A stretch of 64,000 bases of DNA, from positions 55,924,001 to 55,988,000 of the forward strand of contig OX597830.1 in assembly GCA_951406725.2 (NCBI GenBank). Direction: 5' to 3'. Made by a program: the position numbers and the translations under genes. The notes beneath the pieces were generated by a model. It was not told the origin of the DNA, ran no database searches, and was given only the letters and a program-made list of their open reading frames with translations. The stretch is from Octopus vulgaris (Eukaryota). Below are positions 20,201-26,200 of the stretch, one piece after another. Every line of letters starts with the position of its first letter. Positions within the stretch are counted from its first letter, which is position 1.

Positions 20201-23200
20201 CTTTATATTCCGAGTTCAATTTCTTATGAAGGCAGCTTGTCTTCTATCCTTCCAAAATTGATAAAATGAAAAATATTGGCCTAATTTGAACTTAAGTATA
20301 AAAACAGTGTTAAATGTGGGTTGAAAGAAGTCTCATTTGTTTTCTTTCTAAAGATATGCCTGAAAAAATTGTTGACGAATCTTACCTCAGAAGTACAATC
20401 TTCAAATCGAATAGCATACCCAACTTGTTCACCAAGTTCAACAGACATTTCTTCAGAAACACGTTTGGCAACAGACATGGCAGCGACTCGACGCGGCTGG
20501 GTACAGCCGACCATGCCATAGTTGGTATAGCCATCTTCATGAAGATACTGGTAATTAACATGAAAGAAAAAAAACATTGCTATAAAATAATAAATAAAAA
20601 GTAAACAGTACATTAAAATAATACTTCCTAATTTTGGCTCAATGCCAGCAATTTTGAGGGAAGTGGGTTAGTCAATTACATCAGCAACATATATAAAAGA
20701 TGTGCAAGGTCAAAGATTAGTTAAACCCAATATTGGTCTAAGATTCAAATGCCAAATTTTAACACCGAATTTGGTTAGATCAAAATTGAACCAAATCCGA
20801 TGACTGGCAGCCAGTCGTTGCCAGTGCCGCTGGACTGACTCCTGTGCAGGTGGCAAATAAAGGAACACCGTTTCGACCCTGTGCTTGAGGAGACCTATTG
20901 AGTTAAGTACATCAACATCAAAAATCAATGGAAATTGTATTTGTGATACCTGTGCCAGTGGCACGTAAAAAGCACCATCTGAATGAGGCCGATGCCAGCG
21001 CCGCCTTAACTGGCTTCTGTGCCGGTGGCACGTGAAAAGCACCAACTGATCGTGGCCGTTGCCAGCCTCCTCTGGCACCTGTGCCAGTGGCACGTAAAAA
21101 GCACCCACTACACTCACGGAGTGGTTGGCGTTAGGAAGGGCATCCAGCTGTAGAAATATTGCCAGATCAGACTGGATCCTGTTGCAGCCTTCTGGCTTCC
21201 CAGACTCCGGTCAAACCATCCGACCCATGCTAGCATGGAAAACGGACGTTAAACGATGATGACGATGTTGTTGTTGAGATTTGTCACTACTATTTTATGT
21301 CCTGGATAAGATATTAAACTATATCCAGTGAAGCTCCAGTTTAGGAATTCAAGAGTTATAAAGAAAGTGAAGTTGCTCCTTAGTCATTGCTGTCCCAAGT
21401 CCTCCCTGGTCCAAGGTAATAGCACCCATCAAAAGCCCCTAATATTTCTTACATGTGAAGGTGTGTGTATGGTTCAGAAGATTGGTTCCCATTCATGTAG
21501 TTTCAGGTTCAGTCCCACTGCATAGCACCTTGGGCAAGTGTCTTCTTGGCCAACAAAAGCCTTGTGAGTGGATTTGGTAGATGGAAACTGAAAGACACTT
21601 GTGTTAGTGTCTCCTTGTCTTGACATCAGGTGATAGTTGTAAATGAGTGTCACTCTCATAGACTGACAAGACAAAGACACACCACACACACACATGACAG
21701 GCTTCTTTCAGTTTCCATCTATCAAATCCACTCACAAGGCTTTGTTTGGCCCAGATCACTACAGGAAACACTTGCCCAAGAGTCAAAATGCAGATGATGG
21801 TCCTGTGACTAAAGTATACAGGACTTGGGAAGAAGGCTGGCCCCTAGACAAGTGTCACATAGGTCCACTTGTGTATGAACATCCCTAATACTACATAAAA
21901 CAGTTCCCACTGCTTAAGAGCGAGATAAGCCTTGTGCCTCAAGGGAAAACTTGAGAGAGCAAAAAAACTAGCAGAGTAAACTGTAACTGACCCGGCAGAA
22001 AGCAACCAAAAGCTACAGTAAAATTTGTGACTCACTTGCTCATGGAAGATCAAAAGCAGTCACAACTGGATGTGCGTTGTGAACTGAAAGAACAGTTGGA
22101 AGATGATCCAGACCTTTTTTCAAAGGTTATCACTGGTGATGAAAGCTAGTACTATGGAATTTGCAAATGTAGAAGAGGTGAAGAAAAAATGACAGAGGCA
22201 TTAAAAAGCATCACTTTGCAAGAGTTCCAGGACTGCTTCAAACAGTGGAAAAGGTGCCTGGATCAATGCATGGCTTCAAATGGAGAATTCTTTGAAGGTG
22301 ATAAAAGTGTAAACATGTAAAACAAAGTGAATAAAATAAAATATTGCAAAATTCCAGTTTCTTTTGTATGAATCAGAATCAAAATCGAAATTGATCAACA
22401 TCAATGGAAATTGTAGCTGTGATACCAGTGCCAGTGGCACGTAAAAAGCACCATCCGATCGTGGCCGTTTGCCAGCCTCGTCTGGCACCTGTGCCGGTGG
22501 CACGTAAAAAGCACCCACTACACTCATGGAGTGGTTGGCATTAGGAAGGGCATCCTGCTGTAGAAACATTGCCAGATCAGACTGGGCTTGGTGCAGCCTT
22601 CTGGCTTCCCAGACCCCAGTTGAACCGTCCAACCCATGCTAGCATGGAAAGCGGACACTAAATGATGATGATGATGATGTATGTATGTATGTATGTACAT
22701 ACATACATACATGCATACATATATACAAGGGGGTACCCAAAAGAAACTGGAATTTTGCAATATTATTTTATTTACTTAGTTTTACATGTTTACATGTTTA
22801 CGTACATACATACATAAGCACATATGTGTGTGAATGTGTATGTTTGTGTTTCTTTGTCATGACATTAAATGACAGTTGTAAATGAGTGTCATTACCATAC
22901 AAGCAGTGTCGTTCATTGACAATATTCTGCAAGAACATGCTTGGCCATGGGGAGATATTATCTTGCTTGGAGACATGTAAGGGTTGGTGATAGAAAGGGC
23001 ATTCAGTCATAGAAAACCCGTCTCTATATATTCTGTTAGACCCATGCAAGTATGGAAAAATGGATGTTTATAGATGATAGAGACAATGGCATCTTTCCTT
23101 AACGGTAACTCACCTGAAGGCGGCGAACTGGCAGAAACGTTAGCACGCTGGGCGAAATGCTTAGCGGTATTTCGTCTGCCGTTACGTTCTGAGTTCAAAT

Positions 23201-26200
23201 TCAGCCGAGGTCGACTTTGCCTTTCATCCTTTCGGGGTCGATTAAATAAGTACCAGTTACACACTGGGGTCGATAAAATCGACTTATTCCGTTTGTCTGT
23301 CCTTGTTTGTTCCCTCTGAGTTTAGCCCCTTGTGGGTAGTAAAGAAATAGGTAACTAACCTGAGTCAACTGAGTAGTTTTCCCTGAGCCAGTCTCTCCAA
23401 CAATAATCACCACACTGTTGTCTCGGACTATGTTCAACAGCTACAAAACAATAACAAAAAAATCTCAATTTGGCAATCGAGGATCAAATCCATGCTATAG
23501 CTGGTCTGCTCCATGTCAAACCGTCCAACCCATGCCAGCATGGAAAACGGACATTAAACAATGATGATGATCTTTGTATCATACTTAACATATATACATC
23601 ATGGACAGGCATGATGCAGGAGTTTATGAAGAGACTTCTTTTCGTTTGGGACAAAACCATAGCATTATACTTGCTGGTGTATATACATAATGTATGATAC
23701 ATAGATAGCTATTTCAATAAACTATATATAAATAAAATGATAAAATAAGGATAAAAATGATTGTATATATATAGATACAAACCTCATTTCGCACAGCAAA
23801 AATGGGCAAGTACTGTCTCTGTTGTAAGATGGTACGACGTTTAGCAAATTCGCTAACAGCTTCCGTTTGGTCAGACATCACTTCTGCAAACTTGTGGCCA
23901 GTTTTATAATCTACATCTCCATTTTTGTCCTAAAGTAAAAAAAAACATTTTTAATTAATTTAAGAAAGTTTTGAGAAAAGTTTTGAAGACGATCTTATAC
24001 TGATGAAATGCCTGAATGTCAGAGATGAGATTTCTTTTCTATTTCTAATAGATAGGGAGACAGTTAGAAAATTGGCAGACGTTCCAAGAGACAAGCCTAC
24101 AAACAGATGGTCAAACATCTCTTACATATAAAAGCGCCTGCACGGTCCCACTTAAAAGGAACCGTGTGGTGCCACATAAAAGCATCCAGCACACTCTGTA
24201 AAGTGGTTGCCATTAGGAATGGCACCCAGCTATAGAAACCATGCCAAATCAGACTGGAGTCCGGTGCAGACCCCAGCTTGTCAGCTCTGATCAAACTATC
24301 CAATTCATGCCAGTATAGACAATGGACATTAGATGATGATGATGAAGATATATAGGTGCAAAAGTGCAAAACATTCTATGAGATTCAAAAATTCATTTCC
24401 TAACCATGCCGTTTCAGGTTCAGTCCCTACTATAGAACACCTTGAGTAAGTGAGCCCTATTATGGCCTTAAACTGACCAAAGCTTTGTGAGTGGATTTGG
24501 TAGAGAGAAACTGAAAGAAGTCCATCATGTGCGTGTTTGTGTGTGTATCCAAGCACCTACACAGCTTTGGTTGACCTAAGTCAATGGCAGAAGACACTTG
24601 TCTCAGGTTCCATGCAGTGGGATTGAACATGAAATTATTTAGTTACAAAGTGAACTACTTAATCAATACAGCCATGATATTAATAAAAAATTCAATTCAT
24701 CATCCTTTAGTGCGAATTGTAGCCAAAAGTAAAGAACTGTATCTATGACACTCTCAAAGCCCTCTAAGACTGATGTTGTCTTCTGTTTCTGTTTGAATGG
24801 CTGCAAGCCAACTCCTGTAGAAGACTGAAGTGAAGGAAATTCCAGAGGATAACACTTTATGGTTAGTATAGAAGCCTGAGAAAAGAGAGACTCATAGAAG
24901 GGGCTAAAAGAGACTGGTAATAATCCTTGTACACTTACAGTTTCATCTTCCTTTTTCACTCCCATAATTTCACCAATTTTGGTTCCAGCCAATTCCCAGT
25001 GCTTCACTTGGGCCTTCTTCCGTTCCTTCTGTTCTCTGTATGATCTTACAACTGCACAGCCTTTGCGGGACACTACAGCCATATCTGAAGTGGGGTCCTA
25101 GAATAGGAAGAAAAGTAAAAACATAACCACTCTGCTTATTTTATTACCATCATCACACTATATATGTGCGTGTGTGTGTATGTATTATATATATAGCATC
25201 CGTGCAGTGCAGCAACTGCAAGCACCCATGCGACATCACACAAAAGTGTCTGTGTAGTACTACATAAAAGCACCCATGTAGTTCCATGTAAAAATGCCAC
25301 GCGATGCCATGTAAAAGCATCCAGCACACTCTGTAAAGTGGTTGCCATTAGAAAGGGTATTAAGCCATAGAAATCATAACCATGCCAAATCAGACAGGAG
25401 TCTGCTGCAACCCCCTGGCTTGCCACCTCTGATCACACCATCCAACCCATGTCAGCTTGGACAACGGACATCAAATGATGATAATAATATATATGTGTGT
25501 GTGAGTGTGTGTATGTATGTATGTGCCGGTGGCACGTAAAAAGCACCCACTACACTCTCGGAGTGGTTGGCGTAAGGCAGGTGAAAGAGTGTAATAACCC
25601 AATAACTGCAGAAACAATCAACTGAGAAAGTACAATGTAGAACAAATGAAAAAGAAACTAAACTCTTACCTTCACAGGGATTACAGGCTCTGGTTGTTTG
25701 GTGAATACAATTCTACCATCAAGGAAAGGTGGCACTGTGTTGTGCACTAGTAAATGAACACGTGCCTCATTATCTTCCTCAAAGTCATCGTCGTAACCGA
25801 TTTTGGTGACCACTCCACTCCTCAGCATCCGGTTTGTCTCCCACATTTCAATATCCTGAGAGAAAGAAATATTTACTGAGGTTAAATTTATATGTGTGTG
25901 TGTGTATATATGTGTATGCGTGTGTGTGTACTTGTACATATATACCTACATATGTATTGGGTCATCCCATAAATAATGCGTTTTCTTTTATACTTCTTGT
26001 TTTTTTTCAAAATTAAGATAAACAAAGTTCTTTTTTAATCTAAAATATACTCCCCTTCATTTCCTACAATGCTCTTCCATCTTTTTGGAAGACTTCCAAG
26101 GCTCCTCTTCCACAATTCACTTGTTCATGACAAAAAATACTCCTCCAGTACTGTTCTGATCTCATCTACAGAATTCATATGTTTTCTGTAACTGAGTAAT

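What the first reader, a model, noticed from the sequence alone, without database searches (positions are those of the whole stretch)
23104..23363. SINE insertion duplicated the DHX38 exon-10 5' splice site, giving a candidate poison alternative donor
Seen: the SINE at 23118-23349 is flanked by a 14-bp target-site duplication GGTAACT(C/A)ACCTGA, which on the minus strand is the donor itself. The in-frame proximal copy reads CAG|GTTAGT. The distal copy, 246 nt into the intron, reads CAG|GTGAGT and matches the U1 consensus better. Using it would extend the Walker-A exon with antisense SINE containing an in-frame stop (23201-23203). Known: splicing factors often autoregulate by alternative splicing coupled to nonsense-mediated decay (NMD). 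Inference: a transposon-made NMD switch, or splicing burden, in PRP16.
Basis: partly seen in the sequence, partly recalled or inferred. Interest (0 to 1): 0.72.

Follow-up and report, generated by a model that had tools for sequence, protein, structure and literature searches.

The report
SINE copied octopus DHX38 splice donor
A jumping element landed just inside an intron of the octopus splicing gene DHX38 and left a second, stronger-looking splice signal 246 bases downstream, but the only spliced form seen in the RNA assemblies examined is the normal one, so the copy is likely a tolerated decoy rather than a regulatory switch.

Summary
An antisense SINE (23117-23353) sits just inside intron 10 of DHX38/PRP16. 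Its 14-bp target-site duplication gives CAG|GTTAGT at 23360 and CAG|GTGAGT at 23114. Using the second site would add 246 nt with stops at 23203 and 23197. The switch is unsupported. In 4 of 4 RNA-type runs one unbroken contig uses 23360->20547, and no 23114 joint is among the 15 of 61 joints shown. That test is weak, because contigs drop rare and NMD-destined forms. The real donor is of ordinary strength, and 7 of the 24 other introns also carry an equal or stronger decoy within 300 nt. The family has over 53,000 copies and duplicated a real donor in a PEBP gene too. This scan noted the same kind of event in other genomes. Against silence: CAG/gtgagt outcompeted a weak upstream donor in human F7 minigenes (PMC1557585), so a leak is plausible. 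One twist: the copy also reads as branch point plus AG|GT, a possible recursive site, but its acceptor scores below all 25 real ones. Verdict: a likely tolerated decoy of a known kind.

The parts
23783..23929 (-). DHX38 coding exon 9
   Evidence: exact mapping of P0002; joint 23440|23783 in 4 of 4 RNA-type runs
23360..23440 (-). DHX38 coding exon 10 (81 nt, Walker A GETGSGKT)
   Evidence: human PRP16 541-567
23352..23362 (-). used (upstream) donor CAG|GTTAGTTA; cut 23360|23359
   Evidence: joint 20547|23360 in 4 of 4 RNA-type runs; U1 pairing -8.2 kcal/mol, stronger than 9 of the 24 other donors; PWM 10.2 bits, above 16 of 24
23350..23363 (+). right TSD copy GGTAACTAACCTGA; its GGTA is also the SINE consensus 3' end
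23117..23353 (+). 237-bp young high-copy SINE, antisense to DHX38, 12 of 237 positions off the local consensus
23201..23203 (-). first in-frame stop of the would-be exon extension (copy-specific change)
23195..23197 (-). second in-frame stop, at positions that match the family consensus
23139..23145 (-). branch-point-like TGCTAAC supplied by the antisense SINE (A at 23140); CTAAC present in 11 of 17 copies
   Evidence: branch-point consensus recalled
23104..23117 (+). left TSD copy GGTAACTCACCTGA
23106..23116 (-). decoy (downstream) donor CAG|GTGAGTTA, cut 23114|23113; its AG is also a weak acceptor (AG|GT)
   Evidence: U1 pairing -12.2 kcal/mol (2 of 24 real donors stronger); acceptor 4.4 bits vs 6.1-18.3 for real ones; no joint among those shown
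20386..20547 (-). DHX38 coding exon 11 (acceptor at 20547)
   Evidence: human PRP16 568-621

Best explanation
An antisense SINE sits about ten bases inside DHX38 intron 10 and its target-site duplication copied the donor; the upstream copy makes the observed mRNA, and the downstream copy is likely a tolerated decoy that is silent or leaks slightly into transcripts predicted to be destroyed by NMD. Shown: the insertion, the TSD, both donor sequences, canonical splicing, and recurrence of the event elsewhere in the genome. Inferred: (1) the SINE RNA's 3' end (..AAATAGGTA) paired with GGTA at the target during target-primed reverse transcription. Here that GGTA is the reverse complement of intron positions +7..+10, so the donor fell into the TSD by accident. 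(2) Exon definition and 5'-to-3' order favour an 81-nt exon with a good donor over a 327-nt exon made of SINE. (3) The single TSD mismatch is neutral drift: 0.9-1.4 differences are expected at 5% divergence. (4) The insertion persisted because the real donor stayed intact.
For: One unbroken 867-4245 nt contig joins exons 9-10-11 canonically in each of 4 runs from 4 studies (depth 44.5, 30.8, 4.87, 21.7), and no 23114 joint is among the 15 of 61 joints shown. The O. vulgaris and O. bimaculoides proteins and 4 further homologs printed all read TQLTQ|(Y/F)LHEDG with no insert. The upstream donor is mid-range for this gene. 7 of 24 other introns have a decoy with equal or better U1 pairing within 300 nt, e.g. 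intron 24, real -8.0 vs decoy -13.7 at +177. There are 53,823 exact family 3' ends, and a rough no-selection estimate gives 14-93 donor-overlapping insertions per genome. 1 of 30 inspected sense-orientation loci is a confirmed second case, in a PEBP/D2-like gene. Human F7 intron 7 has identical downstream donors that normally stay silent (PMC1557585 abstract).
Against: All RNA data were Logan contigs, which drop rare forms; 46 joints were hidden; and NMD would deplete exactly this isoform. Absence of the distal junction is therefore not shown. The decoy is unusually strong: only 6 such sites occur in 104,911 nt of DHX38 introns, and only one other lies within 300 nt of a donor. In F7 minigenes the same 9-mer, CAG/gtgagt, took about 70-90% of splicing from a weak TGG/gtgggt donor (PMC1557585 section 9). 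That system has a weak donor, 37-bp repeats and mammalian cells. The ancestral donor letter could not be determined.
Confidence: 0.72

Rival explanations
1. Unregulated burden: the consensus-perfect downstream donor captures a sizeable share (over about 10%) of splicing events. NMD removes those transcripts and lowers DHX38 output, with no regulatory role.
For: The distal site pairs U1 4 kcal/mol better than the real one. CAG/gtgagt competes strongly in F7 minigenes. The stop has the usual NMD geometry.
Against: Only the canonical junction was seen, in unbroken contigs, in 4 of 4 runs. The real donor matches the consensus at 8 of 9 positions, unlike the weak F7 donor. The exon would grow from 81 to 327 nt, longer than any of the 25 donor-bearing coding exons (max 269).
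Confidence: 0.16
2. Self-erasing insertion: the SINE plus one TSD copy is removed as a 246-nt intron (GTTAGT...TGCTAAC...CAG). This regenerates CAG|GTGAGT on exon 10, which then splices to exon 11 (recursive splicing) and gives normal mRNA.
For: Tandem AG|GT with a top-ranking regenerated donor; TGCTAAC lies 26 nt upstream of the AG; 246 nt is longer than this gene's shortest intron (201 nt); the AG scores in the top 7% of 5,738 intronic AGs. Mature mRNA would look identical to what one search shows.
Against: The acceptor scores 4.4 bits, below all 25 real acceptors (minimum 6.1). There is no downstream RS-exon donor at -6.5 kcal/mol or better down to 22700. The intron is 2.8 kb, whereas Drosophila ratchet points lie mainly in long introns and need an RS-exon (PMC8605326 passages). 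The branch motif is a family-wide feature (11 of 17 copies). No 23113|23360 joint was among the 15 shown.
Confidence: 0.07
3. Regulated poison switch: the distal donor was co-opted so that PRP16 level or cell state tunes DHX38 by AS-NMD.
For: The host is a splicing factor; the geometry would give NMD; the element appears to be shared with two other organism labels. AS-NMD autoregulation of splicing factors is recalled knowledge.
Against: No junction seen. The element is young and shows no sign of constraint (5.1% from consensus, within the family range 3.4-10.1%). The same event occurs in a PEBP gene. A search for DHX38 + NMD + poison exon listed 3 papers, none with DHX38 in title or abstract (listing only).
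Confidence: 0.05

Closest known systems
Human F7 intron 7 duplicated donors (PMC1557585; abstract, passages and section 9 read)
   Same: An authentic donor followed by sequence-copied downstream donors that normally stay silent; the upstream site is preferred.
   Different: The F7 copies come from a 37-bp minisatellite and are identical and weak. Here there is one copy, made by a SINE TSD, 246 nt away and consensus-perfect, which is the type that did compete in F7 mutants.
Dog merle SINE in PMEL (PMC7349775; passages read)
   Same: An antisense SINE inserted at an exon-intron boundary with a 15-bp TSD, offering alternative splice sites.
   Different: Merle sits at an acceptor, has proven alternative splicing and a phenotype tied to poly(A) length. 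Here it is a donor, and no alternative product was seen.
Drosophila ratchet points / recursive splice sites (PMC8605326 abstract and passages; PMC8184009 abstract)
   Same: Tandem AG|GT whose use would regenerate a strong donor.
   Different: Weak acceptor, short intron, no RS-exon donor, no conservation shown, no intermediate observed.
Intron gain by transposon insertion or AGGT duplication (PMC4256211; one passage read)
   Same: A duplicated AGGT around an element could supply both ends of a precisely removable intron.
   Different: Here the AGGT is an existing donor, so no new exon junction would arise; removal is only hypothetical.
Octopus tRNA-derived SINEs (Ohshima and Okada 1994, seen only as a citation in PMC9223172)
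   Same: Short, high-copy, TSD-flanked octopus retroelement.
   Different: The family name was not established here; ARAGORN calls no tRNA in this copy.

Membership tests
SINE insertion with target-site duplication | short, non-coding, dispersed high-copy element | tested here: met
   237 bp; 17 full-length copies in 264 kb; 53,823 exact 3' ends genome-wide, tandem units included
SINE insertion with target-site duplication | flanking direct repeat of the target | tested here: met
   14 bp with 1 mismatch; chance about 2.6e-5; 10 of 17 copies have 10-19 bp TSDs
SINE insertion with target-site duplication | tRNA-derived head | tested here: inconclusive
   ARAGORN finds no tRNA gene; no family library was available to compare with
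SINE insertion with target-site duplication | empty site in an outgroup | tested here: inconclusive
   no empty-site joint among 15 of 894 joints shown in 4 DNA-type runs; the exon-end pattern was absent from metagenome contigs
Poison (AS-NMD) alternative 5' splice site | premature stop more than 50 nt upstream of a downstream junction | tested here: met
   stop 87 nt upstream of the distal junction, 15 further introns; the 50-nt rule is recalled
Poison (AS-NMD) alternative 5' splice site | alternative junction present in RNA | tested here: inconclusive
   only the canonical joint in 4 of 4 runs; contigs only, 46 of 61 joints hidden
Poison (AS-NMD) alternative 5' splice site | isoform rises on NMD inhibition and responds to the host factor | not testable with these tools
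   needs perturbation RNA-seq
Poison (AS-NMD) alternative 5' splice site | conserved, constrained poison segment | tested here: not met
   the segment is a young SINE with ordinary divergence (12 of 237); presence indicated only in organisms about 2% different
Recursive splice site (ratchet point) | juxtaposed AG|GT regenerating a strong donor | tested here: met
   CAG|GTGAGT at 23114|23113; exon 10 also ends in CAG
Recursive splice site (ratchet point) | acceptor of authentic strength | tested here: not met
   4.4 bits vs 6.1-18.3 for 25 real acceptors, under a small model trained on this gene
Recursive splice site (ratchet point) | cryptic RS-exon with a downstream donor, in a long intron | tested here: not met
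   no GT at -6.5 kcal/mol or better from 23113 to 22700; intron 2,812 nt; criterion from PMC8605326
Recursive splice site (ratchet point) | intermediate junction or lariat in nascent RNA | not testable with these tools
   no raw-read RNA run was offered

The most novel reading that the evidence does not exclude
The SINE erases itself at the RNA level. Its antisense end carries a family-encoded branch point, and the TSD supplies AG|GT, so the element plus one TSD is spliced out as a 246-nt intron that rebuilds exon 10's donor. That would be a transposon-born recursive splice site, and a route by which an element with over 50,000 copies survives insertion at splice donors across the octopus genome.
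Probability: 0.07. Interest if true: 0.65.

Novelty: new member of a known kind. Interest (0 to 1): 0.2.

Why it matters
As it stands it is an ordinary tolerated retroelement scar. It is a neat natural test of donor choice in a mollusc: same context, with the stronger copy downstream. If the distal donor were used and regulated, it would be a datable birth of AS-NMD control in a core second-step spliceosomal helicase. If the AG|GT were used recursively, it would show how a SINE can make its own insertion spliceable. Both are cheap to test with raw nascent or NMD-blocked RNA-seq.

Tried and rejected
(1) Ancestral donor and empty site: an exact exon-end pattern found 0 matches in metagenome contigs. 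The DNA lay was flooded by SINE contigs, and 240 letter rows were hidden, so letters at 23111 and 23357 were not visible. Organism D (X9) had almost no cover over exon 10. (2) An intronic contig in X8 (22950-23109, depth 3.4) ends 4 nt inside the distal intron start. It is one low-depth contig picked after the fact, so it was not counted as evidence of distal use. (3) Structural masking of the decoy: the strand folds no better than shuffles (z -0.36), and none of the 25 of 31 inverted repeats shown involves the SINE. (4) Antisense look-alikes: pattern ACTYACCTGAAGGCGGCGAGCTGG gave 0 matches. TYACCTKAAGGCGGYGAGCT gave 13, none confirmed as an exon. The right-junction pattern gave 218 matches; I inspected the first 30 plus 12 hand-picked from the 100 listed, and most were tandem SINE units. 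L095 has the same geometry but no exon could be confirmed. (5) Pfam found nothing for 18 of 18 flanking frames of the sense set; 12 of the 13 TSD-bearing loci stay unresolved. (6) Literature: no paper held recursive splicing + transposable element + target site duplication. Octopus + SINE + splice site + TSD gave 2 unrelated listings. PMC3488318 passages were uninformative. Only open-access full text was searched; no supplements were consulted.
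Full report
Observation. The window shows GGTAACTCACCTGA at 23104-23117 and GGTAACTAACCTGA at 23350-23363. On the minus strand these read CAG|GTGAGT (23114|23113) and CAG|GTTAGT (23360|23359), 246 nt apart. The flanking exons match human PRP16 residues 541-567 and 568-621 without a gap. The protein annotated as Octopus vulgaris PRP16-like (P0002) maps residue for residue onto 26 coding exons, and the Walker-A exon is number 10. 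Reading on from exon 10 gives 52 codons, then TGA at 23203-23201 and again at 23197-23195. The repeat is not chance (about 2.6e-5).

The element. In 264 kb around the window there are 17 full-length copies of a 237-bp family. 10 of them have TSDs of 10-19 bp, and this copy differs from their consensus at 12 of 237 positions (family range 3.4-10.1%). Contigs of other copies stop matching at 23117 and 23353 in all 4 DNA-type runs. So the element ends in ..AAATAGGTA, and the GGTA of the TSD is microhomology with the target. The genome holds 53,823 exact copies of the 18-nt 3' end, tandem units included. I infer target-primed reverse transcription with 3'-end pairing. Here the GGTA is the reverse complement of intron positions +7..+10, so the donor entered the TSD incidentally. 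One mismatch between TSD copies is what 5% divergence predicts (0.9-1.4 expected). The first stop is copy-specific; the second lies at consensus positions.

Age and sharing. Runs labelled organisms B and C each have a contig from the left flank into the SINE (22850-23143) and one from the SINE into the right flank (23329-23533). Another organism-A run has the right one (23330-23498). These reach only 24-27 letters into the element, short of the tool's 31-letter bridging rule, so sharing is likely rather than shown. B and C differ from the window at 10 of 415 letters nearby. No empty site appeared among the 15 of 894 joints shown. The ancestral donor letter remains unknown.

RNA. I laid 4 of the 10 organism-A runs guessed to be RNA: the best holder from each of four studies. 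Each has a single contig of 867-4245 nt that joins 23783|23440 and 23360|20547 with GT-AG ends, no mismatches and depth 4.9-44.5. No joint at 23114 or 23113 is among the 15 of 61 joints shown. This proves the upstream donor makes the main mRNA. It does not prove the other is unused: contigs drop rare forms, NMD would deplete this one, and no raw-read RNA run was offered.

Site strengths (U1 motif recalled, models trained on this gene's 25 introns). The used donor pairs U1 at -8.2 kcal/mol, stronger than 9 of the 24 other donors. Its PWM score of 10.2 bits is above 16 of 24, so it is ordinary, not weak. The decoy is -12.2 kcal/mol and 12.9 bits, near the top. Equal or stronger decoys within 300 nt occur in 7 of the other 24 introns, the clearest being intron 24 (CAG|GTCAGT -8.0 vs CAG|GTAGGT -13.7 at +177). 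Decoys as strong as this one are rare, though: 6 in 104,911 intronic nt. Using it would make a 327-nt exon; the longest donor-bearing coding exon of the gene is 269 nt. In human F7, copied downstream donors normally stay silent (PMC1557585 abstract). In the same paper, however, a downstream CAG/gtgagt took about 70-90% from a weak donor (section 9). This is the main reason a leak keeps real odds.

A reading the first stage missed. The decoy is also AG|GT, with TGCTAAC 26 nt upstream, so the SINE plus one TSD could be excised as a 246-nt intron that rebuilds the donor. Several results go against it. The acceptor scores 4.4 bits against 6.1-18.3 for real ones, although that is still the top 7% of 5,738 intronic AGs. 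No RS-exon donor follows within about 400 nt. The intron is short compared with Drosophila ratchet-point introns (PMC8605326 abstract and passages). The branch motif is present in 11 of 17 copies. The EJC represses regenerated sites in flies (PMC8184009 abstract).

Recurrence. 106 SINE ends are followed directly by GTAAGT. Of the first 30, 13 have a TSD of 10 bp or more. One of these, L041, duplicates the donor of a real exon: the 40-residue exon is 98% identical to an O. sinensis D2-like PEBP protein that continues DPDSP after YTLIMN, matching AAC G|GTAAGT, and a TAG|GTAAGT copy lies 276 nt downstream. The other 12 are unresolved. A rough no-selection estimate is 14-93 such events per genome. 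It uses 54,000-180,000 copies, 5-10 tolerated offsets, and exon and gene counts from PMC10700109 passages. A hit in a splicing factor therefore needs no special explanation. Earlier scan notes report the same class in cat-lineage RPL8, camelid SPEG, alpaca BDP1 and lizard TWSG1, and a duplicated donor in octopus CREB. These are unchecked AI notes, used only for two paper leads.

Comparison and verdict. It works like the F7 pseudo-donors and is structurally akin to the merle SINE at the PMEL acceptor (PMC7349775 passages). It fails or cannot pass the membership tests for a poison splice site and for a ratchet point. My searches found no paper describing this locus or a TSD-made recursive site (open-access text only, listings seen). 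Odds: tolerated decoy 0.72, sizeable unregulated leak 0.16, recursive self-excision 0.07, regulated poison switch 0.05. Novelty: new member of a known kind; interest 0.2.

Noticed in passing
L041:1119-1530 (G000:C2, about 187.11 Mb): The same SINE family, in sense orientation, duplicated the real donor of a PEBP/D2-like exon (AACG|GTAAGT, with a TAG|GTAAGT copy 276 nt downstream). Because the family ends in AG|GTA, sense insertions may favour donor-like targets.
   Followed up: partly
genome-wide; e.g. window -8505 and -6790 relative copies (L002), loci L065-L094: The SINE forms tandem arrays of about 184-nt units: its 3' GGTA joins the internal GGTATTTCGTC. Decay of that junction often gives GGTATTTCACCTG, an antisense CAG|GTGAAA donor-like site (most of the 100 listed matches of 218).
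   Followed up: partly
L095:520-790 (G000:C10, about 106.89 Mb): Same geometry as this finding (antisense SINE, 15-bp TSD, AAG|GTAAGT and AAG|GTATGT 245 nt apart), but no exon could be confirmed beside it.
   Followed up: partly
window 164-2119 (+): A 651-codon open frame that looks leucine-rich-repeat-like with a transmembrane segment lies on the opposite strand inside the 49.8-kb intron 19 of DHX38.
   Followed up: no
window about 35300-45800 (+): Exons of an LRR-like gene start about 700 nt upstream of the DHX38 start codon, head to head, suggesting a shared promoter region.
   Followed up: no
DHX38 intron 24 (left of the window, L008): The real donor CAG|GTCAGT is followed 177 nt later by a much stronger CAG|GTAGGT (-13.7 vs -8.0 kcal/mol); origin not examined.
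   Followed up: no
window 30460-30730: Two O. vulgaris PRP16 proteins of 1252 and 1257 aa are on record; the open frame before exon 2 has 5 extra codons (YLTR/H region), which may be an alternative acceptor.
   Followed up: no
window 7253-8248 (-) and 32520-32910: Fragments that look like LINE reverse transcriptase, one inside intron 17 of DHX38.
   Followed up: no
window 22950-23109: A depth-3.4 intronic contig in run X8 ends 4 nt inside the decoy donor's intron start; one contig only, compatible with chance.
   Followed up: partly
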